64,000 nt of DNA, from positions 17,303-81,302 of the forward strand of contig CALVYA010000002.1 in the NCBI GenBank assembly GCA_944371905.1, in the 5' to 3' direction. This DNA comes from an uncultured Bacilli bacterium. Its GTDB lineage: Bacteria > Bacillota_I > Bacilli_A > RF39 > UBA660. The position numbers were made by a program, and so were the translations under genes. This document shows, piece by piece, positions 44,064 through 60,807 of this stretch (positions are counted from its first letter, which is position 1; each line of letters begins with the position of its first letter). The notes under the pieces are model-generated. The model was not told the origin of the DNA and made no database searches. It worked only from the letters and a program-made list of their open reading frames with translations.

Positions 44064-44284
44064 ATGAGAAGAAAAATAATTACTATTGCAGCAATTTTAA
44101 TTATTTTTGTTTTAGCTTCTGCCGTATTATTCAATGCTTTCAAAAAAGAAGAAGAAAATGGACTAACCAAAGTAAAAGTAGCAGAAGTTACTCACAGTAT
44201 TTTCTATGCCCCACAATATGCTGCTATTGCTTTAGGATACTTTGAAGATTATGGAATCGATATCGAGTTAACTTTAGTACCAGG
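44064..44284 (+). pseudogene. ABC substrate-binding protein gene, segment A (codons 1-74)
   Basis: Signal-anchor followed by KVKVAEVTHSIFYAPQYAAIALGYFEDYGIDIELTLVPG (NMT1/THI5-type, COG0715-like). The reading frame runs into element 1 and stops after 5 foreign codons. Confidence 0.85.
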
Positions 44285-44288
44285 TGCT

Positions 44289-44307
44289 ACTAATCTAAAA
44301 AGATAGC
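44289..44307. repeat. left terminal inverted repeat of element 1
   Basis: actaatctaaaaagatagc is the reverse complement (18/19) of 47381-47399. Confidence 0.9.
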
Positions 44308-44308
44308 A

Positions 44309-45709
44309 TCATAATTTAGAAAAATTATAAATAATTTTGATTTGCTTATTTCTACTAATTGTAATTTTATTAATTAAAGAGAATAATAATTCTCTCGTTA
44401 TATAAATATTATCATAAACATTGTTGGTTGACAATTGATTCAGCTTTTTTAACTCTTGTTGTAATTCTTCTCGTTTTAATAAATAAGTTTCTACGTCAAT
44501 AATTTCATTAAGCCTATCTTCATATAAATACTTTAATTTTTTTTCTATTTTTTGTATATCTTGATTATTATTAATATTTCTTTGCTTTAATAATTGGTTA
44601 TTGATTATGAAAGATAAAAAGTTATTGATTCTATTCAAAACAAATTCTTCTAATTTTTGATAATTTATATAATGAGAAGTACAATTACTAGAATTATTTC
44701 GATAGGTATTGCAAGTCATAATATATTGTTTTCTTTTATTGGAATAACTAACCCCTAATAGACTACCACATTCCAAACAATAAACTAAACCTTCTAATAA
44801 TAACTTATTTCGAATAATATGATGTCCTTTTTTTCTTTTTCTAGATTGAATAATTTCAAATAATTCCTCACTAATGATTTTTTCTTGGGTATTATTTATT
44901 ACTACCCATTCTTGCTGATTCCTTTTTATTCTTGTTTTATTTTTATAACTAACATTTGTCCATACATTACTAACTAGGCATCCCGTGTATTCCTTATTAT
45001 TTAAAATATTATATATACTAGAAGCAGTCCATTTTTGATTGGTGGGAGATAAAATATTTTGATTATTTAATTTAATCGCAATCTCTTTATTACTTTTGCC
45101 ATGAAAAGATAAGGAAAAAATTTGTTTAACAATATTAGCTTTATCTTGATCAATAATTAATTTATTTTTATTATTAGGATCTTTTACATAGCCATATGGT
45201 GCTCTACTTCCCAAAAATAATCCTTGTTCTTTCTTAGTTTTCAAAATTGATTTTATTTTTTTAGAAGTATCTTTAGAAACCATATCATTAAACAACGCTT
45301 TAAAGGGTGCTATATCATTATTACCAGTATCATAATAAGTATCAATTCCATCTAAAATTGAAACATATCTAATTTTATTGGTCGGGAAATAATTTTCCAC
45401 ATAATACCCTGTTTTAATATAATCTCTTCCTAACCTAGATAGATCTTTAGTTATAACCATATTTATTTTATTATTTTTTATATCATGTAATAATTGATTA
45501 AAAGCAGGTCTATTAAAATTAGTTCCTGAATAACCATCATCTACATACTCTTTTATCGAACTTAAATTGTGCTCTTTTAGATATCGATAAATCAATTTCC
45601 TTTGATTTTTTATACTCTCACTTTCTTTATTTTTTTCTTTAAATAAATCCTCCTTAGATAACCTAATATAAACTCCTACTTTAAAATTACAATTATTCAT
45701 CATAATCAC
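44309..45709 (-). CDS. large serine recombinase 1
   Basis: N-terminal resolvase domain (VGVYIRLSKED...DDGYSGTNFNRPAF...ITKDLSRLGRD), a recombinase domain and a Cys-rich zinc-ribbon region plus coiled coil. The tracked start is a GTG and two ATGs follow within 4 codons. Confidence 0.9.
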   Translation of the reverse strand: MIMMNNCNFKVGVYIRLSKEDLFKEKNKESESIKNQRKLIYRYLKEHNLSSIKEYVDDGYSGTNFNRPAFNQLLHDIKNNKINMVITKDLSRLGRDYIKTGYYVENYFPTNKIRYVSILDGIDTYYDTGNNDIAPFKALFNDMVSKDTSKKIKSILKTKKEQGLFLGSRAPYGYVKDPNNKNKLIIDQDKANIVKQIFSLSFHGKSNKEIAIKLNNQNILSPTNQKWTASSIYNILNNKEYTGCLVSNVWTNVSYKNKTRIKRNQQEWVVINNTQEKIISEELFEIIQSRKRKKGHHIIRNKLLLEGLVYCLECGSLLGVSYSNKRKQYIMTCNTYRNNSSNCTSHYINYQKLEEFVLNRINNFLSFIINNQLLKQRNINNNQDIQKIEKKLKYLYEDRLNEIIDVETYLLKREELQQELKKLNQLSTNNVYDNIYITRELLFSLINKITISRNKQIKIIYNFSKL

Positions 45710-45785
45710 ATTCTTGCCAATAAGTTTTTAAAATCTCTATAATATCCATATTTCCATATTCTTCAATGATTATATAATCTTTCAT
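45693..45785 (-). CDS. 30-aa acidic mini-ORF upstream of recombinase 1 (candidate accessory or directionality factor)
   Basis: Hand translation: MKDYIIIEEYGNMDIIEILKTYWQECDYDE*. It overlaps the recombinase start. The same arrangement occurs in elements 2 and 3. Confidence 0.4.
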   Translation of the reverse strand: MKDYIIIEEYGNMDIIEILKTYWQECDYDE

Positions 45786-45817
45786 ATTATCAACTCAATA
45801 AAAAATATGCAAAAAAA

Positions 45818-45842
45818 ATATTATTAGAATTTCTAATAATAT
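45818..45842 (-). terminator. terminator between the cargo operon and the recombinase operon of element 1
   Basis: atattattagaa/ttctaataatat palindrome followed by T8 on the minus strand. Confidence 0.55.
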
Positions 45843-46720
45843 TAAGCTTCGTTTTTATTAAATTTATTTCGGAGCATAAAATAATAGATAATCTGAATAG
45901 TACCTATTAATAAAACCACTAAACCATAATTAACAAAAGTACCAAAAATATTTTCTTTTACCAACTGAATCGTTGCTGTTGAATATTCTTCTTCTAAAAT
46001 TAATTTCATAGCAACATTCCCTAATCCGCCAAGAGAGGCAAATACTCCACCAGCTAAAACTGTTGTTACTCCTGTCCAAATAGCAAAACGATAAATTGAC
46101 CATCTAACAATAGCTATGATAGCAATAACTATGATAATCATTACGAATAATACTATTTTAGAACTATCTCCAAGTAAAACGCGAATCACATTCATATCTT
46201 CTTCGTTTATTTCATTCTTCATCTCATCATATGTCGGGAACATATTAGATATTTCGGAAGAATTTTCTTCCACTTCTACTAAGATATTATCATGTTGTTC
46301 TTCCGTTAAAGTGATGCCTAATTCTTGAGCAGTTCGATCTAAAACTTCATCAACTGTTTGTACTATTTTATCAGCTGTAATAATTATTCCTTCTTGTCCA
46401 CTTGATAAATAATGAGCAACATCTCCATAATACTCACTAATTAATGCTTTAAATTCATTAGAATTAATAATTCCATCCACTATTTGGCGATCTATATTAT
46501 TATTATCAGCAATAGTATATAATCTATCCAAACTATCACTATCATTAGTGGTTAAAATTTCTTTCATATCCATATCATTAACAATTGTTGATACATTATC
46601 TTTGCTAATTAATTTAGGACCAATTAATAATCCAATATACATACATATCATTATAAATAATACAAAGCATAAAAATAAACTAACGATTTTTGATATTACA
46701 TCTAACCCTTTATTTTTCAT
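45842..46720 (-). CDS. hypothetical membrane protein (292 aa)
   Basis: One N-terminal TM helix, a soluble acidic domain and 3-4 C-terminal TM helices. It overlaps the upstream acyltransferase gene by 11 nt. Confidence 0.6.
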   Translation of the reverse strand: MKNKGLDVISKIVSLFLCFVLFIMICMYIGLLIGPKLISKDNVSTIVNDMDMKEILTTNDSDSLDRLYTIADNNNIDRQIVDGIINSNEFKALISEYYGDVAHYLSSGQEGIIITADKIVQTVDEVLDRTAQELGITLTEEQHDNILVEVEENSSEISNMFPTYDEMKNEINEEDMNVIRVLLGDSSKIVLFVMIIIVIAIIAIVRWSIYRFAIWTGVTTVLAGGVFASLGGLGNVAMKLILEEEYSTATIQLVKENIFGTFVNYGLVVLLIGTIQIIYYFMLRNKFNKNEA

Positions 46721-47324
46721 TTTGATTCTCCTTTTCTTTTCTATTATTAATAATTAATGTTTTGACCTTATCCATTAATTCATTATTAGCTTCTTCCAAA
46801 GAATTTGTTTTTATTTTATACGGTTTCCCAAAACAAATAGTAATTTGATTTTTCCTAAAAATTTTATATTTACCAGTAATAGAAAATGGCACTATAGTAC
46901 TATTGGTTTTTGAAGCCATAGATACTGCACCAAACTTAAATGGCATAATAACATCCTTCGTTCTATTGAATGTGCCTTCAGGAAAAATACCAATTAATTT
47001 TTGATCTTTTAATACTTTAATAGCTTTTTTCAAGGCTTCATGATCCTTTTGTCTCCTATTAACAGGAATGCAAGCCATGGCTTTAAAAAAAGGGGTTCCC
47101 AGACCTTTAAACAGTTCATCTTTTGCTAAAAAATGAATTGTTCTTTTTGTAGTACAAAACAATAAAGGAATATCCAAAATATTAGTATGATTTCCACAGA
47201 TTACAACAGAACCTTTTTTAGGAATATTTTCATTACCTATGATAGTAGGACGATACACAACTCTAAATAATCCATTGACAATTGGTCTTAAAATTCTATA
47301 TAGTATAGCATCTTTTTTTTCCAC
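46710..47324 (-). CDS. 1-acyl-sn-glycerol-3-phosphate acyltransferase family (PlsC-like)
   Basis: HX4D motif (NHTNILD) and FPEGT motif. Confidence 0.8.
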   Translation of the reverse strand: MEKKDAILYRILRPIVNGLFRVVYRPTIIGNENIPKKGSVVICGNHTNILDIPLLFCTTKRTIHFLAKDELFKGLGTPFFKAMACIPVNRRQKDHEALKKAIKVLKDQKLIGIFPEGTFNRTKDVIMPFKFGAVSMASKTNSTIVPFSITGKYKIFRKNQITICFGKPYKIKTNSLEEANNELMDKVKTLIINNRKEKENQNEK

Positions 47325-47380
47325 ATCTACACCTCTATTAATGATTACATTTATATTATAACACGTTATATTAATTATTT

Positions 47381-47399
47381 GCTATCTTTTTAAATTAGT
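47381..47399. repeat. right terminal inverted repeat of element 1
   Basis: gctatctttttaaattagt. See 44289-44307. Confidence 0.9.
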
Positions 47400-47405
47400 A
47401 GCAGG

Positions 47406-47627
47406 TGCTGATAAAGTAGCAGCAGCAATATTATCAGGTGATATGGATATTGCTTTCTGTGGTAGTGAAGCAACAATATATGTTTACAATGGTGGAGAAA
47501 AAGACTATTTAAAAACTTTTGCCCAATTAACACAAAAAGATGGAAGTTTTCTAGTTTCTAGAGAAAAAATTGACAATTTTACTTTAGATGATCTACGTGG
47601 TAAATATGTAATTGGAGGTCGTGCTGC
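47406..47627 (+). pseudogene. ABC substrate-binding protein gene, segment B (74 codons)
   Basis: ..ADKVAAAILSGDMDIAFCGSEATIYVYNGGEKDYLKTFAQLTQKDGSFLVSREKIDNFTLDDLRGKYVIGGRA. It is in frame with segment A once element 1 is removed. Confidence 0.85.
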
Positions 47628-47661
47628 CCTTCGGTTTTTATATGATAATTTTTTTAAGCAC

Positions 47662-49254
47662 TTAATCGGTGCTTAGCTCATTTATTAATAAATTAGGGTC
47701 TTTAATTTTATAATTTATTGTTATTTCTTTATTTTGTGTAATCATTATACTATCTATAATACAAGCAATTAAGTTTTTACTTGGTTTTCTTAATCTTAAA
47801 AATTCTTTAACTATACTTGTATAATCATTATTAGGCTTCATTTTGTTTTCTATTATCTCAAGTTGTGTTTCTAATTCTTTTAATTTTAATTGATTACTTA
47901 ATATATCGTTTATTATTTGATTATTAAAGTCTTTGTATTCTTCAAGTGTAATTACCTCATCTATTTTATCAAAGTAGATTTTATTTTTTCTTTTATTAAG
48001 TTTTTCTATTTCTAGATTACAAGAATTAATTTCTCCTTTTATTTTTTCTTTAACTTTGTTTCTTTTAGAAGCGTTTTTTAGTAGATTTTCAAAGTTAGTA
48101 CTATCCACATACTTCTTACACATTTCTCTTATTTCCCTTAATACTTCTTTTTCCAATTTTTGATAATTCATGGTATGAGGAGTACATACCTTAAACTTAC
48201 TATGCTTTTGATAATATGTACACCCTGTATATGCTCTATCTTCTGTTCTTTTTGATATTGAAATAGAGTGTCCGCATTCACTACAATATAAAAAGCCTCT
48301 TAACAAATAATTTGTTGAGTTATTTTGCTGATGTTTGTTCTTTTTATAGACTTGTTGTACTATATCAAACATTTCTTTATCTATTATAGGCTCATGTGTA
48401 TTTTCTATAACAATCCAACTAGATTTAGGAGTTCTTATTTCTTTTTTTATCTTATAATTAATAGTTTTTCTTCTTCCTTGACATAGATTTCCTATATATG
48501 TAGGATTACATAACATTTCATCTATTGTTCTTGAACACCACAAACCATAAGAAGAAGATTTAACACCACGATTTAAATTAGCATATACACTAGGTATTGG
48601 AATACCCTCTTTAGATAAAGTATCTGCTATCACTTTACAACTCATACCATCATAAGCCATTTTAAATATTCTTCTAACTATTGGCGCTACTTCTTCATCT
48701 ATAACTAATTTATATCTATCATTTTCATCTAGTTTATAACCATATACTGCTTTCCAACCAAGAAACTTGCCTTCTTCTTTTTTACTTCTTAAACTTCTTC
48801 GTACTTTTTTTGAAGTGTCTTTTGCATATTGGTCATTAAAAACTGCTTTAAATGGTGCTATATCATTACTGACACTATCTAGGTATGTATCTATATCATC
48901 TAATATGGCAATATATCTTACATTATGTTGTGGAAAGTATTTTTCCATATATTCCCCAGCTTTGATGTAATCTCTACCAAGTCTAGAATAGTCTTTTGTG
49001 ATAACACAATTTATTTTTCCACTTTCTATATCTCTTATCATTCTATTAAAAGAAGGTCTATCGAATGTAGTTCCACTTACACCATCATCTACATATTCAT
49101 CATATATTTTAAAGTTTTCTTTTTGCTTGTTAATGTAATCTAGTATTATATTTCTTTGATTCGAGATACTTTCACTCTCTATTTTATTTTTATCTTCATC
49201 TTCTCTTGATAAACGAATATAAGAACCAACATTATATATTTTATCTTGTTCCAT
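47662..49254 (-). CDS. large serine recombinase 2 (paralog of recombinase 1)
   Basis: VGSYIRLSREDEDK...DDGVSGTTFDRPSF...ITKDYSRLGRDYIKAG. The start was chosen at MEQDK after a ggagg RBS. It is collinear with recombinase 1. Confidence 0.9.
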   Translation of the reverse strand: MEQDKIYNVGSYIRLSREDEDKNKIESESISNQRNIILDYINKQKENFKIYDEYVDDGVSGTTFDRPSFNRMIRDIESGKINCVITKDYSRLGRDYIKAGEYMEKYFPQHNVRYIAILDDIDTYLDSVSNDIAPFKAVFNDQYAKDTSKKVRRSLRSKKEEGKFLGWKAVYGYKLDENDRYKLVIDEEVAPIVRRIFKMAYDGMSCKVIADTLSKEGIPIPSVYANLNRGVKSSSYGLWCSRTIDEMLCNPTYIGNLCQGRRKTINYKIKKEIRTPKSSWIVIENTHEPIIDKEMFDIVQQVYKKNKHQQNNSTNYLLRGFLYCSECGHSISISKRTEDRAYTGCTYYQKHSKFKVCTPHTMNYQKLEKEVLREIREMCKKYVDSTNFENLLKNASKRNKVKEKIKGEINSCNLEIEKLNKRKNKIYFDKIDEVITLEEYKDFNNQIINDILSNQLKLKELETQLEIIENKMKPNNDYTSIVKEFLRLRKPSKNLIACIIDSIMITQNKEITINYKIKDPNLLINELSTD

Positions 49255-49324
49255 TTTACCTCCAATCCAAAGTAAAATATATATGTTTATTAACACATAT
49301 ATTATACCATTTTTATCCTTATTT

Positions 49325-49441
49325 TTAAAGGCTTTGTGATATTTCTAACTCATAAAATTCGTAGTAATATTCGAGTAAAAATTTTTCTATTATTTCTTGT
49401 AAATCTTTACCATCTTTATTAAAAGTACTTGTTATTTTCAT
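49325..49441 (-). CDS. 38-aa mini-ORF upstream of recombinase 2
   Basis: Hand translation: MKITSTFNKDGKDLQEIIEKFLLEYYYEFYELEISQSL*. It is co-directional and acidic. The EIIEKFLLEY stretch loosely resembles DIIEILKTYW of mini-ORF 1. Confidence 0.4.
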   Translation of the reverse strand: MKITSTFNKDGKDLQEIIEKFLLEYYYEFYELEISQSL

Positions 49442-49737
49442 AAATTCACCTATTTAAACTTATGCCGACATAAATTGTTTTATTAAATCCTTTCTTTGCT
49501 TAAGCAACTTTAGAATACCAATAATCAAAAAATCTTTCTTTTACAAAAAACAAAATAAAGTGTTATATTTTTACAAAATTAAAACCTTTATTTTATAAGG
49601 GCTAAAGGTACTTTTACAACCGATTTTTCGAGTAGAAAGTCAGTTTTTAGACATATTTTAATATTAAAAAAACTTTGTTAAGATGAAATCACAAGAGCAA
49701 GGAACCAACTCTTGAAAATATGAAAGGAGAATAAAAG

Positions 49738-49965
49738 ATGGTAGTAGATGATTATAAAATTAAGTTAGAAATCATAAAACTTTCTATTATGAAACACACA
49801 GGAAGAGAAATCAGCGAAGAACTATTGAATAAGTTTTGTAAATATTTAACTATGGAATATGAAAATAATTCATCTAAAAATAGTATTGATAATCGTATCA
49901 ATAGTATTTGTAGAACTATTACTATAAAATACGATAAATATATGAGAATTATCAATGCTAACTAA
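49738..49965 (+). CDS. hypothetical protein (75 aa)
   Basis: Good RBS (gaaaggag). No motif recognised. Confidence 0.5.
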   Translation: MVVDDYKIKLEIIKLSIMKHTGREISEELLNKFCKYLTMEYENNSSKNSIDNRINSICRTITIKYDKYMRIINAN

Positions 49966-50056
49966 TTTAAGTTTATTTAAACCCAAATAAACTTAATTAA
50001 ACTTATAAATAAGTCATTTAGGATAAATGCTTATTGCTTTGTATTATATTTCCTTA

Positions 50057-50082
50057 AAAGTGATAAAAAATATCACTTTTTT
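50057..50082 (+). terminator. rho-independent terminator
   Basis: aaaagtgata/tatcactttt stem followed by a T-run. Confidence 0.6.
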
Positions 50083-50145
50083 CGTTTTAGGGGCAGACAA
50101 GAGGTTCCAACAAACTATATAATACATAGCCAAGGAGATGAAATT

Positions 50146-51300
50146 ATGGGAAAAAAACATAGAACTTTAAATGATACTATCTTTAGAAATAGTAAATATA
50201 TAGAGGTGGTAAATAAACAAGTCGGTTGTGATGACTTTAAAAAAGAGTGCCAAAATCCTAATTCTCAATATAAGGGTCAATATGATTTTATGTTGGAAAC
50301 TTTTAAAACTCTTATTTCACTTTATAATTGTTTTTATAGTGATAGCAACTTATCATTTCTTGAAAAAGTAGAAAATGCTATAAATATTATGGAAGAATAC
50401 ATTTATAAAGATTACGAAGTTGATAAGAAAAAATATAGTGTTAGATTTATTCAAAGTGTGAGTGATAAATATAGCACATATCTATATAGAAAAATAAGTA
50501 ATGATGAAACAGGTTGGTATGTTATATTAGATGATATAGATTCTAAAGAAATAAATACCTCTCCCATAGCTAAAAATGTTATAAAAGAAATTGAAGAAGA
50601 AATGACAAAACTTGAAAATATAGGCTTTGATGATATGGTCAAAGGCTCTATTGCTTATAAAAAAAATAAAGATAGTGATTACAAAATCTATATAAGTAAG
50701 TTTGACAGTTTAAATACAAAGCAAGAACAATTTATAGAGGAATTTAGTACTAAATACAACGAAAGCCATATAACTCCCTTAAATGATAATGAACTGACTA
50801 ATATAGCCTTAATTTATAACCTTGTAGCAAAAGTTAATAATGGCATAGTAAAAGTTCTTTCAAACAAACCAAATAAAAACTATAACTTAAATGAAAGGTC
50901 AACCCCTAGCAACTATTACAAGGCTTATCTTGATAGTTTAAATATTAGTATTGATGATAGTTTCTTTACACTTAATGCTAATGCTTTTATGATGAATGTA
51001 ATTATCACTTATTCTAATTCTTGCGGAGCAAAAGGCTTATCTCTAAATGATATGATAAATAATTTTGATATGTATTACTTTCTTGATAAAATAGAAAATT
51101 CCGTAGTCAAAAAAAATCTTTCAGTTAGTGATGAAAGAATACAAAAAATAATTTTAGACTTGAAACAAATTTATAACATTATTACAACAAAAAATAATGG
51201 ACTTGATGAATTATTTAATAATTTTAAAAGAGCCAATGAAATAATACTAAATATTATGAGCCGAGATAATAACTTAAATTATTATATAAGAGTTAGTTAG
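50146..51300 (+). CDS. hypothetical protein (384 aa), unknown-function cargo
   Basis: RBS aaggag. No Walker, nuclease, HEPN or other motif is visible. It is translationally close (8 nt) to the next gene. Confidence 0.6.
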   Translation: MGKKHRTLNDTIFRNSKYIEVVNKQVGCDDFKKECQNPNSQYKGQYDFMLETFKTLISLYNCFYSDSNLSFLEKVENAINIMEEYIYKDYEVDKKKYSVRFIQSVSDKYSTYLYRKISNDETGWYVILDDIDSKEINTSPIAKNVIKEIEEEMTKLENIGFDDMVKGSIAYKKNKDSDYKIYISKFDSLNTKQEQFIEEFSTKYNESHITPLNDNELTNIALIYNLVAKVNNGIVKVLSNKPNKNYNLNERSTPSNYYKAYLDSLNISIDDSFFTLNANAFMMNVIITYSNSCGAKGLSLNDMINNFDMYYFLDKIENSVVKKNLSVSDERIQKIILDLKQIYNIITTKNNGLDELFNNFKRANEIILNIMSRDNNLNYYIRVS

Positions 51301-51308
51301 GAGAAAAA

Positions 51309-52073
51309 ATGAATAAATTTAATGTTATGAAAATATTAGAAAAACAACAAAAAGAAAAAGAATTATTACATAAAGATTTAGAAAAAGAAGAATATTTGAA
51401 AAAAGTTTATAGTTTCATAGATGATTATGTTAAGCCACTACTTGAGAAAACAACTAATAATATAACCTATGGCTTTACTGACGATTTTGATACATTTATC
51501 TTATCAAAGAAAGTTGAAGATTTGCTTATTTATACGATAAAAATATTAGACTTAATTGGGAATAATATGTTCAAAGATATAGAGGAACCCCAACTTTTGC
51601 AAAATGCTTTGCTTAATGAAGAAATAGGTTTTTTAAACAAAGATAAAAAAATAAAGAAACAAGTAGCAACAAAATTATGTGGTTATATAACAAAAAGATT
51701 ATCTTATGAAGATAACTTGAATAATTATGTTGATGAATATATAAAACCTATGTTTATTAAGTTAGGCAAAGAAAATAAAATTGTTTTCGATTTAAACTCT
51801 AAAGATGAGAATAAATTGCTTATCTCTAATAACACAATAGAGTTATCAAAATTAGGTGTTTGTGAGAATACTATTATAAGTTTAGTTTTTCCTTTTACAA
51901 AAAATAATTATGATGAGAACACATTAAGGCATTTAGACTTTCTTTTTAATAATGATACAGAAATAAAACAAGAGTTTGCCGATTATTTAGTTAATACTTT
52001 TGTAGAAAGATATAACGAGATAGATTTTATCAATGTAAAAAAATTTAACCTTATAAACATATTAAAAGAGTGA
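51309..52073 (+). CDS. hypothetical protein (254 aa), unknown-function cargo
   Basis: RBS aggag. No motif recognised. It forms an operon with 50146..51300. Confidence 0.6.
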   Translation: MNKFNVMKILEKQQKEKELLHKDLEKEEYLKKVYSFIDDYVKPLLEKTTNNITYGFTDDFDTFILSKKVEDLLIYTIKILDLIGNNMFKDIEEPQLLQNALLNEEIGFLNKDKKIKKQVATKLCGYITKRLSYEDNLNNYVDEYIKPMFIKLGKENKIVFDLNSKDENKLLISNNTIELSKLGVCENTIISLVFPFTKNNYDENTLRHLDFLFNNDTEIKQEFADYLVNTFVERYNEIDFINVKKFNLINILKE

Positions 52074-52100
52074 TAAAAGATTTTATTCTTTATCACTCTT
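52066..52100. terminator. bidirectional terminator shared by convergent genes
   Basis: 12-bp stem aagagtgataaa/tttatcactctt overlapping both stop codons. Confidence 0.65.
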
Positions 52101-52340
52101 ATTTTTTGTATTTTCTTTAAATAATTCGGCTATATCTATATCAAGTACAAGAGCTAACCTCCAAAGTGTTCCAAGTGAAAATGTTTGATGATTTTTACTT
52201 TCTATATTAGATATAAATTGTGTTGAATACCTCATTTTATTGGCTAATTGTTCTTGTGTAAGTCCTTTTAGTTGTCTTTGCTTTTTTATGTTCTTTGATA
52301 CTACTTCATATATATAGTTTTCATCATCTCTTTTAAACAA
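52083..52340 (-). CDS. XRE-family HTH transcriptional regulator
   Basis: LKGLTQEQLANKMRYSTQFISNIE... Confidence 0.85.
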   Translation of the reverse strand: MFKRDDENYIYEVVSKNIKKQRQLKGLTQEQLANKMRYSTQFISNIESKNHQTFSLGTLWRLALVLDIDIAELFKENTKNKSDKE

Positions 52341-52415
52341 TTATACCACCACCTAACACTATTAATATTTTCTCAAAAATAGCACTGAATATACTTACTC
52401 TATTCGCGTAAGTTG

Positions 52416-52424
52416 TGGTATAAT
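52416..52424 (+). promoter_or_regulatory. extended -10 promoter element, divergent from the XRE gene
   Basis: TGGTATAAT, with a weak -35 (ttactc) about 17 nt upstream. It points into a 470-nt ORF-free AT-rich tract. Confidence 0.45.
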
Positions 52425-52891
52425 AGTTTATAAGAAAGGAGTTTATAATTCTTAAAAGAAAAGAAGTTTGATGTGTTTATATGGAATAATATTATTAAAG
52501 GTTTATGACCGTGAAAATAATTATTAAAGTGAAATAGTATAAAATAATTATGAGTAAGAAGATATAAGTTATAATACTCGACATTCAACTATTGATTTCA
52601 CTTACAATATGGATATAGAAAATAATTAAGTTGATTTTTACTTAATAATGATACTTACAAATTAAAATATGATAAAAAAATAAATGTTTAATTGATGAAA
52701 AATAAAATATTATATGTAATTATTTATAGATAAACTATGATAGCTTTGATAAAATTAATTAATATTGTGTTATAATTAATATGTAATGCATTTTTTTATT
52801 TTATTTTTATATAGCAATAAGTTAATTTGATTAAAAGTATGCTTGTACAGGTATTTTTAATATAGATGTATAGAAGTGAAAGGAGGTTTTT

Positions 52892-53245
52892 ATGGAAACA
52901 AAATTTTGTGAAAATTGTGGTAATAAAGTTGCTATCGATGCAGTGATATGTCCAAAATGTGGCAGACAACTTGAAGAACTTAAAACAGAAGAAAATAAAT
53001 CAAATGCTTCGCAAGTAATTATTAACAATTCAAACATTGTTGATGGAGGATATAAAAAAAAACAATGTGATAAATGGATAACTTTATTATTATGTATATT
53101 TTTAGGAATATTTGGTGGTCATAAATTTTATGAAGGTAAAATTGGATTAGGTATTTTATATATTTTTACTTTTGGACTTTTTGGAATAGGTATATTAGTA
53201 GATTTTATAGTAATTTTATTTAGACCTAATCTTTATTATGTATAA
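52892..53245 (+). CDS. zinc-ribbon plus TM2-domain membrane protein
   Basis: FCENCGN..CPKCG followed by ...LLLCIFLGIFGGHKFYEGKIGLGILYIFT.. (TM2 domain pattern). Confidence 0.75.
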   Translation: METKFCENCGNKVAIDAVICPKCGRQLEELKTEENKSNASQVIINNSNIVDGGYKKKQCDKWITLLLCIFLGIFGGHKFYEGKIGLGILYIFTFGLFGIGILVDFIVILFRPNLYYV

Positions 53246-53259
53246 TAGGAGGAAATAAG

Positions 53260-54111
53260 ATGGAAGAAAAAAAGTTTTGTAAATTTTGTGGTGAGAAGAT
53301 TGATAAAGATAGTATTGTATGTCCAAAATGTGGCAGACAACTAAAACTTGTAAAAAATGAAATTAATGAAAAAAAGATAAATAATACACAAGAAAATGAA
53401 ATAAAATTTTATCAGCAACAGTGGTTTATGTGGATTATGTTAGTGTTTTTTGCACCAGTTGGAATATTTCTTATGTGGAAATTCAATGATAAAATGAAGA
53501 AAAATATTAAAATAATACTAACAGTAATATTTTCTATTTTCTTTATAATAGTAATATCAAGTAGTAGTTCTAATGATGTTAATGAGAACGGAACAAAATA
53601 TGAAACTAATAAAAAAATAACTGTTGAAATAGTAGATTTCAGTAATATGACAACTGCCGAAGTTGATAATTGGTGCAGTGAAAAAAAAGTTAATTGCAAA
53701 AGAGTTGAAGAATATAATGACACTATTGAAAAAGGTAAATTTGTAAGTCAAAGTATTGAAAGTTCAAAAACAATTTATGAAGGAGAACAAATAACAATAG
53801 TTTATTCGCTTGGAAAGGAACCAACAGTTAGCCAAAAAAATGCAGTAAAAAAAGCTGAATCATATTTAGATTATTCTGCTTTTTCAAGAAATGGTCTAAT
53901 TAAACAATTAGAATTTGAAGGTTTCTCAAATGCTGATGCAACATATGCTGTTGATAATATAATTGTTGATTGGAATGAACAAGCAGTGAAAAAAGCTAAA
54001 TCATATCTAGATTATTCTGCTTTTTCAAGAAATGGTTTAATTAAACAATTAGAGTTTGAAGGTTTTACTTACGAACAAGCAGTATATGGCGTTGAACAAA
54101 ACGGATTATAA
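53260..54111 (+). CDS. zinc-ribbon/TM/PASTA-like protein with two Ltp-type repeats (superinfection-exclusion-like)
   Basis: FCKFCGE..CPKCG, one TM helix, a PASTA-like segment (ITVEIVDFSNMTTAEVDNWC...GEQITIVYSLG), then two copies of AVKKA.SYLDYSAFSRNGLIKQLEFEGF. Confidence 0.7.
   Translation: MEEKKFCKFCGEKIDKDSIVCPKCGRQLKLVKNEINEKKINNTQENEIKFYQQQWFMWIMLVFFAPVGIFLMWKFNDKMKKNIKIILTVIFSIFFIIVISSSSSNDVNENGTKYETNKKITVEIVDFSNMTTAEVDNWCSEKKVNCKRVEEYNDTIEKGKFVSQSIESSKTIYEGEQITIVYSLGKEPTVSQKNAVKKAESYLDYSAFSRNGLIKQLEFEGFSNADATYAVDNIIVDWNEQAVKKAKSYLDYSAFSRNGLIKQLEFEGFTYEQAVYGVEQNGL
53842..54066 (+). repeat. intragenic direct repeat (two 84-bp copies, period 141 bp)
   Basis: 53842-53925 and 53983-54066 differ at only about 6 positions. 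They encode the two Ltp-type repeats. Confidence 0.85.
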
Positions 54112-54182
54112 AATAAAAGAGTATATAATCAATTATATGCTTTGTTTTAATCTATTTACACAAAACTACACAAAATTAGAGA

Positions 54183-54237
54183 AAAGTCTTTGATAACCTA
54201 CTATATATATGAGGAGGTGTTACTATCAAAGACTTTT
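54183..54237 (+). terminator. 14-bp-stem hairpin plus T-run; terminator and/or translational control of the next ORF
   Basis: aaaagtctttgata (54183-96) pairs with tatcaaagactttt (54224-37). The 27-nt loop holds the gaggagg RBS. TTTTTT follows. Confidence 0.5.
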
Positions 54238-54395
54238 TTACTTTAAAAGATGCTTGTAAGATTATAAATATATCTTATAAAACACTTTATAGTTGGGTTA
54301 AAAATAATGAAGTATCTTACACTAAAATTGGTAATAGATATTATATGACACAAGAGCAAATCAATGCTCTTGTTTTTGTTTATAACAAATCATAG
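54225..54395 (+). CDS. excisionase-type (HTH_17/MerR-like) DNA-binding protein, apparent non-canonical ATC start
   Basis: Hand translation: IKDFFTLKDACKIINISYKTLYSWVKNNEVSYTKIGNRYYMTQEQINALVFVYNKS*. A GGAGG lies 7 nt upstream. There is no ATG, GTG or TTG in frame after the preceding stop. Confidence 0.5.
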   Translation: MKDFFTLKDACKIINISYKTLYSWVKNNEVSYTKIGNRYYMTQEQINALVFVYNKS

Positions 54396-54476
54396 TTTTG
54401 TATTGCTTAAAAACTTAACACAAGCCACGATATAATATTAAAATCAAATTGTAAAAATTAAATAAGGAGGAAAAAA

Positions 54477-55274
54477 ATGTATAGCATATATCAAAATAGA
54501 TATGCCAATAAATTACACTTAAATATTATAAAAGTTAAATATTCAAAGGAACATACCTTACTTGAAAGAGATTTTAGCATTAAATTAAGTGATGATTACA
54601 ACGATTTAGCAAACGACTTAATAACATACAAATTATATCTTTATTTAGGTAGTTTACTAAGTCAAAATGCTTTAAGAAATGAAATACTAACACTTGATAC
54701 AAAAGCCTTTCTAAATGCCTTAAAAACAACTAAAAAGGCTTATATTATATCATCGCTTGAATATTTAAAAGCCATAAGGTTTAAATACTACTATTTTAAA
54801 GGTAAGAAGAACAACAAAGGCTATATCAAAGAAATAAGAAATTGTAGTATTATTGATGATTATTCTTCTTCAAAAGGTAGTATAACAATTAGATTTAATA
54901 AAGATTATTTAACCTTACTTGGTTATAGTAGATTAACCTTACAACTACCTAACGAGCTATTTACTATGAATATAACAAAATATCATCATAGTTTATTTAT
55001 GGGAGTTCGTATCTTATTACATAGACAAGTGAATTTTAATAAGAAACAAAGAAATGTTATATCAGTAAAAGAAATAACAAAATATTGTCCTTTACTCCCT
55101 TGTTATGATGATTTAAACGAAAGTAAGCAAGTATCAAGAAATATATTAGAGCCATTTAAAAAAAATATGGACTTTATGTGGGAAATACTTAATTTTACTT
55201 GGAAGTATGAAAATGAGCTAACTACATATAACTCATTTATAAATAATAAAATAATCTTTGAGTGTAGAAATTAG
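54477..55274 (+). CDS. putative replication initiator (Rep-like, winged-helix)
   Basis: The call rests on its position directly upstream of a DnaB-C-like ATPase and an AT-rich palindromic region, plus general resemblance to RepB/Rep_3-type proteins. It is weak. Confidence 0.35.
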   Translation: MYSIYQNRYANKLHLNIIKVKYSKEHTLLERDFSIKLSDDYNDLANDLITYKLYLYLGSLLSQNALRNEILTLDTKAFLNALKTTKKAYIISSLEYLKAIRFKYYYFKGKKNNKGYIKEIRNCSIIDDYSSSKGSITIRFNKDYLTLLGYSRLTLQLPNELFTMNITKYHHSLFMGVRILLHRQVNFNKKQRNVISVKEITKYCPLLPCYDDLNESKQVSRNILEPFKKNMDFMWEILNFTWKYENELTTYNSFINNKIIFECRN

Positions 55275-55390
55275 AGCAAAGTTTAGCAGATTTTGAGTTT
55301 TGATATGTAGATGACATTTGTTAGAAACACTTATAAATCAATACTTTTTGAGATGTTTATTTCCTTAAATATAATAAGTATATTATATAT

Positions 55391-55417
55391 AGCACTCACT
55401 CTTTAAAGAGTGGTGCT
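55391..55417. promoter_or_regulatory. 27-nt palindrome followed by a (TA)n tract: candidate origin or terminator
   Basis: agcactcactcttt/aaagagtggtgct, then tatatatatata. It lies in the 265-bp gap between the Rep-like and helicase-like genes. Confidence 0.35.
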
Positions 55418-55540
55418 TATATATATATAACTTAATTTTTACAATAAAAAAAAACTATAAAACTCATATAGAGTATATTATATTCTACTTATAATAGTAA
55501 GAACAATATATGTATATAAAAATTTTAGAAGGAGAAAAAA

Positions 55541-56368
55541 ATGCTGACTATAGATGAATATAAAAACTATATAACTAATGAAAACAATGTAAGAAAAATA
55601 CCAACTAACTTTAGCAAATTAGATAATATATATGGTGGAGGTTTATCAAAAGGACTAACCATTATTGGTGCTAACACTGGCTTAGGCAAAACAACTTTTG
55701 TCTTACAACTTGCTGATAATGTAGCACAACAACCTAACACAAAAGTTTTATTCTTTTCTATGGAATTAACTAAATATGAGTTGGTGTCAAAGTCTTTAAG
55801 CCGATTATCTTATTTAGATAACAACTTAACTAATCATACACCTAATGATTTTATAAGTAATGGTGTTGATGATTTGGATACTTATTATAGTCATTATGAG
55901 CCAATGGGAAATAATGTTTATATAGTTGATAATATTAGAAGTATTATGAAAATATCTAAAACTATTTACGACTTTTGTAATGAGTTTGAAAATGACAAAG
56001 TTGTTGTTATTATTGATTACATACAATTTATAAATTGTAATGGAAGCAACGATAAGCAAAATGTTGATATAATCACACGAGAACTTAAAGCACTTGCCAA
56101 TAATTACAATATACCTATTGTGGCAATTAGTAGTTTAAGTCGTGAGGGTGCTAAAAGAAATGATATATCATCATTTAAGGAAAGTGGTTCAATAGAATAT
56201 ACCGCTGATTATTTAATTATTATGTATCAAAAGCAAAATAATAGAGAGTTGGCTTTTACTGATGATACTGATACTATAACAGTTCAGTTTCTAAAAAATA
56301 GATTTGGAGTAAAAGGACAATTTGATTTAAAGTATATTGGAAATTATGCAACATTTAAGGAACTTTAA
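55541..56368 (+). CDS. DnaB-helicase C-terminal-domain-like (RecA-fold) ATPase
   Basis: Walker A GANTGLGKTT, Walker B VVVIIDYIQ, ...ISSLSREG... Confidence 0.75.
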   Translation: MLTIDEYKNYITNENNVRKIPTNFSKLDNIYGGGLSKGLTIIGANTGLGKTTFVLQLADNVAQQPNTKVLFFSMELTKYELVSKSLSRLSYLDNNLTNHTPNDFISNGVDDLDTYYSHYEPMGNNVYIVDNIRSIMKISKTIYDFCNEFENDKVVVIIDYIQFINCNGSNDKQNVDIITRELKALANNYNIPIVAISSLSREGAKRNDISSFKESGSIEYTADYLIIMYQKQNNRELAFTDDTDTITVQFLKNRFGVKGQFDLKYIGNYATFKEL

Positions 56369-56385
56369 CGAGTTCCTTTTATTTT
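56357..56385 (+). terminator. terminator overlapping the ATPase stop
   Basis: aaggaact/agttcctt stem followed by ttatttt. Confidence 0.5.
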
Positions 56386-56491
56386 GGGAAAATATTTTAG
56401 TCGTTTAATTTTAGGGCAACCCATTGATATAAAAAAAGTAGTAGAAAAAGTTATTTAACTTAGCCCCTACTACAAGGAGGAATAAAAAATT

Positions 56492-56677
56492 ATGAAACAA
56501 AGATTTTTAACACTTGTAGAGGTATGTGATAGCCTACATACTTCTATTGGGTATATAAAGAAACTAATTGATGAGGGAAAAATTAAGGCTATTAAATCAT
56601 CAAAAAATTACTTAATTAGTGAGTTTGAATATTTAAAACTAATTGAGTTTATGGAGGTACAGCATAATGAAAAATAA
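56492..56677 (+). CDS. excisionase-family HTH protein
   Basis: FLTLVEVCDSLHTSIGYIKKLIDEGKIKAIK. Confidence 0.6.
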   Translation: MKQRFLTLVEVCDSLHTSIGYIKKLIDEGKIKAIKSSKNYLISEFEYLKLIEFMEVQHNEK

Positions 56678-56975
56678 TAAAATAAGTATAGATTTAGATA
56701 TTGAGGACTTATTAGGTATTAAGGAAACAAGCAAAGATAGTTTAGAATATGATTTAGAGTTTATAATCAATAATGGTTATGATGAATATATCAAGCAACA
56801 AGAAGAACACAACAAAAAGAAACAAGAATTTATAGAACTATTTAAAGAGTGTTATGATGAGTTATGCATTTTTATGGAAAAAGACCCTAAACAAAGAGTT
56901 GCTATATCTTGCTTTACTTGTATCAAAGGTATGGACTTATCTAAACAATATGGTAAGCCAAAAAAAGATAAGTAG
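56667..56975 (+). CDS. hypothetical protein (102 aa)
   Basis: The start was chosen at MKNNKISIDL after a ggagg RBS. No motif recognised. Confidence 0.5.
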   Translation: MKNNKISIDLDIEDLLGIKETSKDSLEYDLEFIINNGYDEYIKQQEEHNKKKQEFIELFKECYDELCIFMEKDPKQRVAISCFTCIKGMDLSKQYGKPKKDK

Positions 56976-57005
56976 TTAAATGATAACTTGCTTATCTTTC
57001 TTTTT

Positions 57006-57254
57006 TTATTGTTTCATTATTTCATTATAGAGTATTATTTGTTTCTTATTGTTCTTTTGAAACTCCCTTCTAAAATCTTTTTGTAATTTTTCAAAATGAT
57101 TATATAAAAGTCCTCTTTCTTTATCAGTAAACTTACTATCTTCTTTTAGGCTTTCTTCTAACATTTGATGAACTACTAGCATTTCTATCATTGTATTATT
57201 CATTTTTTCAGTTAAGTTAAATCTTAACTCATTTATATTTGTACACTTTTTCAT
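57006..57254 (-). CDS. hypothetical coiled-coil protein (82 aa)
   Basis: The internal ATG (MKKCTNINELRF) has an agagg RBS. The longer tracked ORF runs into the element end and is unlikely. Confidence 0.45.
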   Translation of the reverse strand: MKKCTNINELRFNLTEKMNNTMIEMLVVHQMLEESLKEDSKFTDKERGLLYNHFEKLQKDFRREFQKNNKKQIILYNEIMKQ

Positions 57255-57411
57255 TTTATACCTCTTTCTTATAATTAGATTTGTTAATAAACACATAATT
57301 TTACCCTTATTGTACCTTGATTTTTTATATTTGTTATCACTATTAACCCAAAGGGGGGGTCGGTGTATCGGTAGTAACATTTTTTTAGTTATCACTTTTG
57401 ATGAGAAAAGC

Positions 57412-57558
57412 CGGAATGCCCGAAATGACCTTTGAATGGGCCTTAAGAGAAGCAGGCATTGATCCCAAAAATGATTTAACTATTGATACTAGTATTGAAT
57501 TTGCTTCTATGGGAGGAGCATTTATTAGTGGTATTGGAGATTTTGTTACTTTATTTGA
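57412..57558 (+). pseudogene. ABC substrate-binding protein gene, segment C (49 codons)
   Basis: ..GMPEMTFEWALREAGIDPKNDLTIDTSIEFASMGGAFISGIGDFVTLFE. It is in frame with segment B after removal of element 2. Confidence 0.85.
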
Positions 57559-57625
57559 ACAAAGTGTTACAAAAAATAATATTCATAAAAAAAGATTTAA
57601 CCATACGATTAAATCGAATTTTTGT

Positions 57626-58546
57626 TTATCCCATAATTTCTCCACCATTATTATGAATAATTTGACCCGTCATATAACTAGAATCATCAGAAGCTAAAAA
57701 CACAAAAGTTGGTGCTAATTCATATGGCATTGCTCCTCTTGCCATCGCTGCATTGGCCCCTAAAGATGGAATTTTTTCCTTTACCCAACAAGCAGGTTGT
57801 AACGGTGTCCAAAAAAATCCCGGTGCGATAGCATTAACTCTTATTCCTTTTAATGCTAAATTTCTAGCTAAAGCTCTAGTAAAGCCAACTATAGCCCCTT
57901 TAGTAGTAACATAATCTATTAATTGTGGATCACCATAAAAAGTGGTCACAGACGTTAAATTTATAATTGAAGATCCTTTTTTCAAATAAGGTAATGCCTC
58001 TCTAGTTAAGTAAAACATTCCATAAATATTGACTTTCATAGTCCAATCAAATTGTTCATCTGTAATATCTTCTAATTTATCTTGCTGATACTGTACTCCT
58101 GCATTATTCACTAAAATATCTATTTTTCCAAATTTATCTAATGTTTTCTTTACGATTTCTTTTGCAAATCTTTTATCAGCAATATTCCCAGATAATAATA
58201 AACATTCCCCTCCTAGAGCTTCTATATATTCTTGTGTTTCCTTAGCATCTATGTGTTCATTATAATATGGAATCACTACTTTAGCTCCTTCTTTGATAAA
58301 AGCTACTGCACAAGCTCTACCTAGTCCACTATCCCCTCCTGTGATAATTGCTACTTTATCTTTTAATTTTCCACTTCCCTTATAATTAGGATTATCAAAA
58401 ATAGGTCTAGGATGCATTAAATATTCCATTCCTGGTTGCTGAGTTTGAGATTGTTCTGGTGCCATAATTAAATATTTTGTGCTTTCTATTCCTAAAGGAT
58501 CATAATAATTATAGAACTTATTTCCGAAATGATAATCGTAATTCAT
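57626..58546 (-). CDS. SDR oxidoreductase of the YhdF/YdaD (general-stress-protein-39-like) type
   Basis: A long N-terminal leader (..QPGMEYLMHPRPIF..YKGSGKLKDKVAIITGGDSGLGRA), NNAG, and an active-site Y/K motif (Y..TKGA). Confidence 0.8.
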   Translation of the reverse strand: MNYDYHFGNKFYNYYDPLGIESTKYLIMAPEQSQTQQPGMEYLMHPRPIFDNPNYKGSGKLKDKVAIITGGDSGLGRACAVAFIKEGAKVVIPYYNEHIDAKETQEYIEALGGECLLLSGNIADKRFAKEIVKKTLDKFGKIDILVNNAGVQYQQDKLEDITDEQFDWTMKVNIYGMFYLTREALPYLKKGSSIINLTSVTTFYGDPQLIDYVTTKGAIVGFTRALARNLALKGIRVNAIAPGFFWTPLQPACWVKEKIPSLGANAAMARGAMPYELAPTFVFLASDDSSYMTGQIIHNNGGEIMG

Positions 58547-58595
58547 ATATATACCTCCTATGTACTATATGCAATTAAACAAACAATGATATTAT

Positions 58596-60185: not shown

Positions 60186-60186
60186 A

Positions 60187-60339: not shown

Positions 60340-60403
60340 GTATATCCCTCATTTAAATCTATGATTTAACATACTTTTTATTTCCTATTGTTACATTAAG
60401 TGA

Positions 60404-60806: not shown

Positions 60807-60807
60807 A

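What the first reader, a model, noticed from the sequence alone, without database searches (positions are those of the whole stretch)
44285..47405. Elements 1 and 3 are minimal recombinase cassettes whose only cargo is housekeeping-like
Element 1 carries a PlsC-type lysophospholipid acyltransferase (HX4D and FPEGT intact) in an overlapping operon with a polytopic membrane protein. Element 3 (57559-60403) carries only a YhdF/YdaD-type stress SDR. Neither has phage, replication, transfer or regulatory genes. An excised circle would therefore be non-replicating and its cargo would be lost. That pattern fits elements excised only in a terminally differentiated cell such as a mother cell, or it could act as a genetic switch coupling loss of the cargo to reconstitution of the transporter gene.
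Basis: inference. Interest (0 to 1): 0.6.

Follow-up and report, generated by a model that had tools for sequence, protein, structure and literature searches.

The report
Mini recombinase cassettes splitting a transporter gene
One transporter gene of an uncultured gut bacterium is cut into four pieces by three recombinase-bearing insertions; the two smallest carry only the host's own housekeeping-type genes, and comparison with related species suggests they are still cut out precisely so that the gene can be used.

Summary
E1 (44285-47405) and E3 (57560-60404) are intact 3.1 kb and 2.8 kb elements. Each has a large serine recombinase (LSR), a small upstream ORF and 1-2 cargo genes: PlsC plus a membrane protein in E1, a YhdF-type SDR in E3. 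With E2 they split one NMT1-type ABC binding-protein gene; removing all three rebuilds a gapless 330-aa ORF.

The LSR1 lineage sits at codon ~75 of this gene in at least 11 species genomes, and the LSR3 lineage at codon ~197 in at least 30 metagenome contigs. Cargo varies between clades.

The cargo is the clade's own: congeners have plsC-mem and the SDR at ordinary chromosomal sites without a recombinase.

The split gene evolves under the same constraint as intact orthologs (omega 0.06-0.09). LSR1 co-diverges with the host, and the attP arms stay symmetric by co-variation. These are therefore not relics, and excision probably still restores a gene that is used.

Terminal (mother-cell) excision is my preferred reading but is unproven. 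A congener encodes SigK. The gene is not a known sporulation gene, and the E3 lineage also moves horizontally.

Verdict: a new variant of gene-interrupting recombinase elements.

The parts
44064..44284 (+). Piece A of the split NMT1-type ABC substrate-binding protein (SBP) gene, codons 1-74, preceded by a sigma-A-like promoter match
   Evidence: Collinear with intact orthologs.
44285..47405 (-). Element E1 (3121 bp), bounded by the crossover dinucleotide GG (44283-4 and 47404-5). Its joined ends form a 23/24 palindrome around GG.
44309..45703 (-). LSR1, a 464-aa large serine recombinase. Its 3' end lies 24 bp from attL.
   Evidence: One search shows the three LSR domains; the N-terminal domain is closest to TnpX (4e-24); omega 0.17-0.19.
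45693..45785 (-). 30-aa acidic ORF overlapping the LSR1 start. It is preceded by an AT hairpin with a T-run and a conserved GCATA motif. Candidate directionality or regulatory factor.
   Evidence: The layout is conserved across the E1/E2-type lineages.
45842..46720 (-). 292-aa membrane protein with about four hydrophobic TM-like stretches (read from the translation) and no family match. It is a conserved partner of PlsC and evolves fast.
   Evidence: About 30% identity among congeners.
46710..47324 (-). PlsC-type acyltransferase (204 aa) with HX4D and FPEGT intact
47406..47628 (+). SBP gene piece B (codons 75-148)
47629..57412 (-). Element E2 (about 9.8 kb). It holds LSR2 (47662-49254), a 38-aa ORF (49325-49441), a repressor-like HTH protein, an Ltp-type superinfection-exclusion protein and a DnaB-like helicase. 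It has no structural phage genes.
57413..57559 (+). SBP gene piece C (codons 149-197)
57560..60404 (-). Element E3 (2845 bp), flanked by a shared TGAAC
57626..58546 (-). YhdF/YdaD-type short-chain dehydrogenase (306 aa), the cargo of E3
58596..60185 (-). LSR3, a 529-aa large serine recombinase
60187..60339 (-). 50-aa ORF directly upstream of LSR3, conserved at 41-68% identity next to LSR3 relatives
60405..60809 (+). SBP gene piece D (codons 198-330 plus stop)
60808..62338 (+). ABC ATPase and permease of the same operon

Best explanation
E1 and E3 are intact, recombination-competent miniature integrative elements. Each consists of an LSR, a small upstream ORF, one or two cargo genes and a symmetric attP.

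Each belongs to a recombinase lineage with its own fixed attachment site inside one conserved gene. This gene encodes an NMT1-type ABC substrate-binding protein and lies next to pcrA. Across a clade of uncultured low-GC gut Bacilli it serves as a multi-site landing pad: codon ~75 for LSR1, ~146 for LSR2 and ~197 for LSR3.

The cargo was captured from the host. The plsC-membrane-protein pair and the SDR are the clade's own conserved genes.

Proposed mechanism (inferred). The recombinases cut at the central dinucleotides and precisely rebuild the binding-protein gene. Three separate, non-replicating circles must leave, taking host-type genes with them. This most likely happens in cells that do not pass on their chromosome, namely the sporulation mother cell. 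The germ line keeps the integrated state and uses the cargo as ordinary genes.

Shown: the anatomy, the in-silico reconstitution, the lineage-specific sites, the native origin of the cargo, purifying selection on the split gene and the LSRs, att co-variation, E1-host co-divergence and horizontal movement of the E3 lineage.

Inferred: that excision happens, and when and where it happens.
For: - Reconstitution is exact.
- LSR1 relatives at 48-66% identity sit at the same junction (...PG|ADKV, core GG) in 11 species genomes next to pcrA.
- LSR3 relatives with an orf50 homolog sit at codon ~197 in at least 30 contigs.
- The split gene has omega 0.06-0.09 in pairs where both genomes are interrupted: window-L098 (dS 0.45), window-L013 (dS 1.0) and L014-L016. 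Against the intact L093 it is 0.07.
- LSR dS is about equal to PcrA dS in four pairs: 0.13/0.17, 0.97/1.33, 1.11/1.24 and 1.63/1.63.
- LSR omega is 0.04-0.19.
- The two attP arms match each other better within an element (18.1/24) than between elements (12.9/24). In the window they match 23/24.
- E1 is present in every one of the 21 and 24 contigs read for two sister species, and no intact gene above 87% identity is on record.
- The cargo is native. plsC-mem lies beside an intact SBP gene without an LSR in L096, and in a mreCD...murC-sigK neighbourhood in L101. The SDR is chromosomal in L194.
- A sporulation sigma factor, SigK, is encoded in congener L101.
- A shared hairpin-GCATA-small-ORF layout precedes the LSR1- and LSR2-type genes, with CATA about 25 nt before orf50. 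This suggests common regulation.
Against: - No excised circle or empty site was seen for this species.
- The interrupted gene is a transporter gene with a sigma-A-like promoter match, and it is uninterrupted in sister species.
- No sporulation gene lies in the window itself, and the SigK evidence comes from a congener only.
- The GCATA motif lacks a convincing -35 partner for sigma-E or sigma-K (my reading).
- The E3 lineage and an ATPase-gene element clearly move between species.
- In some relatives LSR1 is shortened to 296-396 aa.
Confidence: 0.4

Rival explanations
1. The elements are purely selfish mini mobile elements. They spread horizontally, using helper phages, conjugative elements or transformation, into a conserved attB. 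They simply knock out a dispensable transporter. The clean state of the gene pieces reflects rapid turnover by gain and loss, not use of the gene.
For: - LSR3 is 90-95% identical between hosts whose SBP is 62-70% identical.
- An LSR element in the ATPase gene is 97% identical between L013 and L096, whose flanks are 77-80% identical.
- Cargo varies and includes typical mobile-element genes such as RhuM, a sigma70_r4 protein and a weak NikA-like match.
- Sister species have intact genes.
Against: - E1 co-diverges with its host in four of four pairs.
- E1 is fixed in two sister species, and the split gene there has omega 0.06 over dS 0.45.
- No transfer function is present in E1 or E3.
- The cargo is the host clade's own genes.
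Confidence: 0.25
2. The elements form a reversible or bet-hedging switch in growing cells. TnpX-like recombinases both excise and reinsert. A subpopulation transiently or permanently restores the transporter, for example under nutrient limitation. This resembles active lysogeny at comK in Listeria.
For: - The LSR1 N-terminal domain is closest to TnpX. TnpX catalyses both directions without a partner (my knowledge of Tn4451).
- The SBP gene has a sigma-A-like promoter match.
- The same selection evidence applies as for the best explanation.
Against: - Three independent recombinases must act in the same cell.
- The circles cannot replicate.
- Loss of plsC-type cargo would be costly.
- No empty-site contigs are known.
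Confidence: 0.2
3. The elements are dead relics. The recombinases and att sites no longer work, and the transporter gene is a pseudogene in four pieces.
For: - Only integrated forms were seen.
- Some relatives have shortened LSRs. In the L071/L074 pair (296-aa LSR) the SBP N-piece has a relaxed omega of 0.47.
Against: - No frameshift or stop occurs in any piece, and omega is 0.06-0.09.
- LSR omega is 0.04-0.19.
- attP symmetry is kept by co-variation.
Confidence: 0.04

Closest known systems
Sporulation gene-intervening elements of Bacillus and Clostridium (skin in sigK, SPbeta in spsM, gin in gerE, yin in yabG)
   Same: An LSR-bearing element interrupts a coding sequence and is excised precisely to rebuild it. 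gin shows that the element need not be a prophage (PMC5595907). In C. difficile a small acidic directionality factor controls timing (PMC5025042). These elements are vertically kept in the germ line.
   Different: The target here is an ABC binding-protein gene, not a known sporulation gene. Three elements sit in one gene. E1 and E3 are 3 kb with 1-2 host-type cargo genes, whereas gin has 31 genes. Sporulation of the host is unproven, and excision was not observed.
Interruption elements of heterocyst-forming cyanobacteria (nifD, fdxN/XisF, hupL; Calothrix NIES-4101 multi-excision)
   Same: The elements can be as small as about 1 kb, holding the recombinase alone. Several elements can sit in one gene or operon. 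Each recombinase lineage is tied to one insertion position. Some interrupted genes have no known developmental role. The same argument applies that an unused gene would decay (PMC4874684, PMC11249958).
   Different: The phylum and the recombinase clades differ: the XisF model scores 86-98 bits against a cut-off of 375. Here the cargo is a captured native housekeeping-type gene, and one lineage is demonstrably mobile between hosts.
Tn4451/Tn4453 (TnpX) clostridial mobilisable transposons
   Same: Small elements driven by a single LSR, with a non-replicating circular intermediate. The LSR1 N-terminal domain is closest to TnpX among solved structures.
   Different: There is no Mob/oriT module. 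Target specificity is strict rather than a loose GA target. The cargo is not a resistance gene.
Staphylococcal cassette chromosome (SCC, ccrAB/ccrC)
   Same: LSR-driven cassettes with variable cargo and no transfer genes, inserted at a single conserved chromosomal gene.
   Different: SCC inserts at the 3' end of rlmH without destroying it. The LSRs here score about 100 bits against Ccr models whose cut-offs are 700-900.
Active lysogeny (Listeria comK prophage)
   Same: An element in a coding sequence whose regulated excision switches the gene on.
   Different: That element is a full prophage that replicates or reintegrates. E1 and E3 have no phage genes.

Membership tests
Large serine recombinase integrative element | Recombinase with resolvase catalytic domain, recombinase domain and zinc-ribbon domain | tested here: met
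   for LSR1, LSR2 and LSR3. The LSR3 zinc ribbon is weak, at 21 bits.
Large serine recombinase integrative element | attP is an imperfect inverted repeat around a central dinucleotide, and attL and attR share that core | tested here: met
   E1 has 23/24 symmetric arms around GG. E3 shares a TGAAC core and has weaker arm symmetry.
Large serine recombinase integrative element | Precise excision restores the target sequence | tested here: met
   Tested in silico only. The rebuilt junctions equal the intact genes of L093 and L098.
Sporulation gene-intervening element (skin/SPbeta/gin type) | Host forms endospores | tested here: inconclusive
   A partial SigK (233 bits) and M23/M50-like genes after mreCD occur in congener L101. 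Nothing relevant lies in the window. [quoted passage not shown]
Sporulation gene-intervening element (skin/SPbeta/gin type) | Interrupted gene acts in the mother cell | tested here: not met
   The gene is an NMT1-type ABC binding protein with a sigma-A-like promoter match and no known sporulation role.
Sporulation gene-intervening element (skin/SPbeta/gin type) | Recombinase or directionality factor expressed under sigma-E or sigma-K, with excision during sporulation | not testable with these tools
   The only indication is a conserved GCATA motif before the small ORFs.
Tn4451-type mobilisable transposon | Mob relaxase/oriT module and a loose GA target | tested here: not met
   There is no Mob domain, and the target codon is fixed across species.
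SCC element | Ccr-family recombinase, with insertion at rlmH | tested here: not met
   Ccr models score 47-108 bits against cut-offs of 700-900. The target is a different gene.
Prophage or phage satellite | Phage structural, lysis or replication genes | tested here: not met
   None are present in E1 or E3. E2 has only phage-type accessory and replication genes.

The most novel reading that the evidence does not exclude
In a clade of uncultured gut Bacilli, several independent serine-recombinase cassettes have been domesticated as a multi-lock on one transporter operon. They have absorbed native, possibly essential, genes such as plsC. Unlocking the transporter then becomes an irreversible, chromosome-sacrificing act confined to a terminal cell type. 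This would extend developmental DNA rearrangement beyond sporulation and nitrogen-fixation genes, and it would show recombinase cassettes relocating core genes around the chromosome.
Probability: 0.25. Interest if true: 0.85.

Novelty: new variant of a known kind. Interest (0 to 1): 0.68.

Why it matters
Programmed DNA excision that rebuilds genes is known from a handful of sporulation genes and from cyanobacterial nitrogen-fixation genes. Here the same logic appears in a different setting. It affects an ordinary-looking transporter gene of uncultured, reduced-genome gut Bacilli. Up to three locks sit in one gene, the elements are only about 3 kb, and their cargo is the host's own conserved genes.

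If excision is confirmed, three things would follow:
- A new developmental or population-level switch would be known in an abundant but unstudied gut lineage.
- Capture of core genes would be shown to stabilise recombinase cassettes and to move such genes between chromosomal sites.
- A set of naturally orthogonal serine recombinases with defined short att sites in one 1-kb gene would be available, which is useful for genome engineering.

Tried and rejected
- Rfam and tRNA scans of the window found nothing, so no riboswitch explains regulation of the operon.
- PADLOC gave no hits for the E1 or E3 proteins or for orf50; the 30-aa ORF of E1 was not scanned.
- A search for sporulation genes in the window found only a sub-threshold GerS-like lipoprotein and a generic Ctp protease.
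- I looked for empty-site or excised-form contigs of the window species. I used the rebuilt protein and exact look-ups of the membrane protein and the ATPase. Only integrated forms turned up. Contig L190, which looked promising, simply breaks inside the right end of E3.
- I looked for att remnants around plsC-mem in L096, where it lies outside the gene. None were visible by eye.
- I tried to read the conserved GCATA as a sigma-E or sigma-K promoter. The -10-like CATA fits, but no proper -35 lies at the right spacing, so I do not claim it.
- In L071 and L074 the 296-aa LSR ORF crosses attL. I considered that it might be completed across the circle junction. The ORF at the other end is a membrane protein, not an LSR C-terminus, so I rejected this.
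- Whether plsC is single-copy could not be settled. Distant genera carry two paralogs, and the rest of this genome is not available.
Full report
**What is there**

The window is low-GC (about 27%) chromosomal DNA. It holds a ribosomal-protein operon, ligA and pcrA. It comes from an uncultured bacterium seen in several gut metagenomes. Its relatives are deposited as 'Bacilli bacterium', 'Tenericutes' or 'Mollicutes' MAGs.

Downstream of pcrA lies one gene for an NMT1-type ABC substrate-binding protein (SBP). It is followed by its ATPase and permease. Three insertions cut it into four in-frame pieces.

Removing E1 (44285-47405), E2 (47629-57412) and E3 (57560-60404) yields a 993-nt ORF. Its product aligns without a gap to intact 330-aa orthologs at 87% identity. 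The three rebuilt junctions match the uninterrupted genes of a sister species (L093) and, for the E2 and E3 sites, of L098.

**Anatomy of E1 and E3**

E1 contains, all on the minus strand:
- a PlsC-type acyltransferase with HX4D and FPEGT intact;
- an overlapping 292-aa membrane protein with no family match;
- an AT hairpin with a T-run;
- a 30-aa acidic ORF;
- LSR1, 464 aa.

E3 contains a 50-aa ORF, LSR3 (529 aa) and a YhdF/YdaD-type SDR.

No phage, replication, transfer or defence domain was found in either element.

The joined ends of E1 form a 23/24 palindrome around GG. The host site shows the same dyad.

E2 is a different kind of element. It has a repressor-like protein, an Ltp-type superinfection-exclusion protein and a DnaB-like helicase, but no structural genes.

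**The same gene is hit, at the same codons, across a whole clade**

A scan of species-representative genomes with LSR1 found relatives at 48-66% identity. In 11 genomes they are inserted at exactly the same junction (...PG|ADKV, core GG) of the orthologous SBP gene beside pcrA. These genomes span PcrA identities of 60-86%.

A metagenome scan with LSR3 found relatives at 48-69% identity. Each follows an orf50 homolog and sits at codon ~197 of the same gene, in at least 30 contigs from human, squirrel, sloth and other guts.

Further variants were seen:
- LSR2-type recombinases occupy codon 146 in L015. L017 shows a break at the same codon, but the contig ends before any recombinase.
- An LSR3-like recombinase occupies codon ~98 in L025.
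- A fourth lineage splits the neighbouring ATPase gene at codon ~196 in L013 and L096. L075 has an LSR1-like recombinase at the same ATPase codon.

Each recombinase lineage thus has its own site, and the operon acts as a multi-site landing pad.

**Cargo varies and is often the host's own**

| Lineage | Cargo seen |
|---|---|
| E1-type | plsC plus membrane protein; an alpha/beta-hydrolase with an M23 peptidase; thioredoxin-like proteins; a signal peptidase with DUF5305; or almost nothing |
| E3-type | RhuM, SWIM, GDPD, a sigma70_r4 protein, a permease-like membrane protein (my reading), or the SDR |

The window's cargo is not foreign.

The plsC-membrane-protein pair occurs in congeners in three settings:
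- inside the SBP gene with LSR1 (window, L098, L013);
- just outside an intact SBP gene, co-directional with pcrA and without any recombinase (L096);
- in a mreCD...murC-sigK neighbourhood (L101).

The PlsC proteins are 71-84% identical whatever their location, as expected for orthologs in a genus whose PcrA proteins are about 86% identical.

The SDR has hundreds of same-length homologs at 83-88% identity. It lies downstream of an LSR3-type gene in some genomes and at a plain chromosomal site in others.

**Evidence that the elements are alive and the gene is used**

- Between genomes that both carry E1, the split SBP gene has omega 0.06-0.09: window-L098 (dS 0.45), window-L013 (dS 1.0) and L014-L016. 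Against the intact L093 gene it is 0.07. No piece has a frameshift or stop.
- LSR genes have omega 0.04-0.19.
- LSR dS tracks PcrA dS in all four pairs tested: 0.13/0.17, 0.97/1.33, 1.11/1.24 and 1.63/1.63. Within window-L098, E1 genes (dS 0.77-0.98) fall in the range of the flanking genes (0.45-1.10).
- The attP arms differ between clades but stay symmetric within each element: 18.1 versus 12.9 matches of 24.
- E1 is present in all 21 and 24 contigs read for two sister species. No intact gene above 87% identity is on record.

A dead element in a dead gene would not look like this. As was argued for the cyanobacterial elements (PMC4874684), an unused interrupted gene and its recombinase should decay.

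**E3 has a different history**

In the LSR3 lineage, recombinases that are 90-95% identical sit in hosts whose SBP genes are only 62-70% identical. The ATPase-gene element is 97% identical between L013 and L096, whose flanks are 77-80% identical.

These lineages therefore move between species, although the small members carry no transfer genes. The means of transfer is unknown.

L098, a sister lineage (PcrA 94.5% identical), has E1 but empty E2 and E3 sites. E1 is therefore old, and E2 and E3 are later arrivals.

**How it most likely works**

Each recombinase should cut at its central dinucleotide and release a circle that cannot replicate. All three must leave before the gene is whole. E1 would take with it a plsC that may be important. 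That pattern is easiest to tolerate in a cell that will not pass on its chromosome.

Points in favour of a sporulation mother cell:
- A congener encodes a sporulation SigK and M23/M50-like genes after mreCD. The related uncultured orders are reported to mix sporulating and non-sporulating species (PMC10868615).
- A shared layout precedes the LSR1- and LSR2-type genes across the family: hairpin, GCATA, then a small acidic ORF. A CATA lies at the same distance before orf50. This resembles the small sigma-E-controlled directionality factor of the C. difficile skin element (PMC5025042) and hints at common control.

I give this specific reading about 0.4. I give about 0.7 to the broader claim that the elements still excise and the gene is still used.

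**Caveats and rivals**

- No excised form was seen.
- The target is not a known sporulation gene, it has a sigma-A-like promoter match, and it is intact in sister species.
- The GCATA motif has no clear -35 partner.
- Sporulation of this species is unverified.

| Rival | Probability |
|---|---|
| Purely selfish turnover | 0.25 |
| Vegetative reversible switch. The LSR1 N-terminal domain is closest to TnpX, which works in both directions (directionality from my knowledge of Tn4451). | 0.2 |
| Dead relics | about 0.04 |

**Comparison with known systems**

The closest analogues are the sporulation gene-intervening elements, including the non-phage gin element (PMC5595907), and the cyanobacterial interruption elements. 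The latter can be recombinase-only and can occur several to a gene (PMC4874684, PMC11249958).

This case differs from both in several ways:
- the kind of gene interrupted;
- three lineage-specific sites in one 1-kb gene;
- the 3-kb size;
- the native housekeeping-type cargo;
- the host clade.

It does not meet the defining features of Tn4451, SCC or a prophage.

I rate it a new variant of a known kind, with interest 0.68.

Noticed in passing
L013:3147-7055 and L096:1245-6100 (ATPase gene of the same operon); also L075: A fourth LSR lineage splits the neighbouring ABC ATPase gene at codon ~196, with acetyltransferase, APH, DUF4145 and S51 peptidase as cargo. Its recombinase segment (about 1.8 kb) is 97% identical between two species whose flanks are 77-80% identical, which indicates recent horizontal transfer. 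L075 has an LSR1-like recombinase (41% identity) at the same ATPase codon.
   Followed up: partly
window 45786-45840, 49442-49470 and 60340-60370 (minus strand); L013-L074 upstream of the LSR genes: A conserved layout lies upstream of the recombinase genes: an AT-only hairpin with a T-run, then GCATA about 25 nt before a 30-50-aa acidic ORF that abuts or overlaps the recombinase start. It could be a shared promoter or operator, and the ORF a directionality factor. No convincing sigma-E or sigma-K -35 element was found.
   Followed up: partly
L071:2682-3572 and L074:9989-10882: In one clade the LSR1-type gene is only 296-297 aa, with no zinc ribbon or coiled coil. Its ORF runs across attL into the host gene. 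It still has omega 0.13 over dS 1.1, and the attP arms remain symmetric. The SBP N-piece there is more relaxed (omega 0.47).
   Followed up: partly
window 45842-46720; L013:9072-9950; L096:8596-9399; L101:7597-8445: The membrane protein paired with PlsC is only about 30% identical among congeners whose PcrA is about 86% identical (omega 0.27-0.55). It keeps an NWSIY(K/R)FAIW(S/T)G motif and its TM layout. It is a fast-evolving, probably surface-exposed partner of a lipid enzyme, with no known family.
   Followed up: partly
L101:8618-12555: In the congener where plsC-mem is chromosomal, the next genes are a 565-aa protein followed by a diversity-generating retroelement (bAvd-like protein plus reverse transcriptase).
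   Followed up: no
window 47629-57412 (E2): E2 resembles a stripped prophage or satellite. It has a repressor-like HTH protein, a TM2 protein, an Ltp-type superinfection-exclusion lipoprotein and a DnaB-like helicase, but no structural or lysis genes. An LSR2-type relative (51% identity) sits at the same SBP codon 146 in L015.
   Followed up: partly
L025:5738-8161: An LSR3-like recombinase (47% identity, 403 aa) with a DUF5684/zinc-ribbon membrane protein is inserted at a different codon (~98) of the same SBP gene. An E1-type element sits at codon ~75 in the same genome.
   Followed up: no
window 43621-43968 (minus strand): A 115-aa ORF with no family match lies between pcrA and the SBP gene. 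It is present in the window, L098 (98% identity) and L096 (56%), but absent in L013 and L093. In L096 it directly follows plsC-mem, so plsC-mem-orf115-pcrA may once have been one operon.
   Followed up: partly
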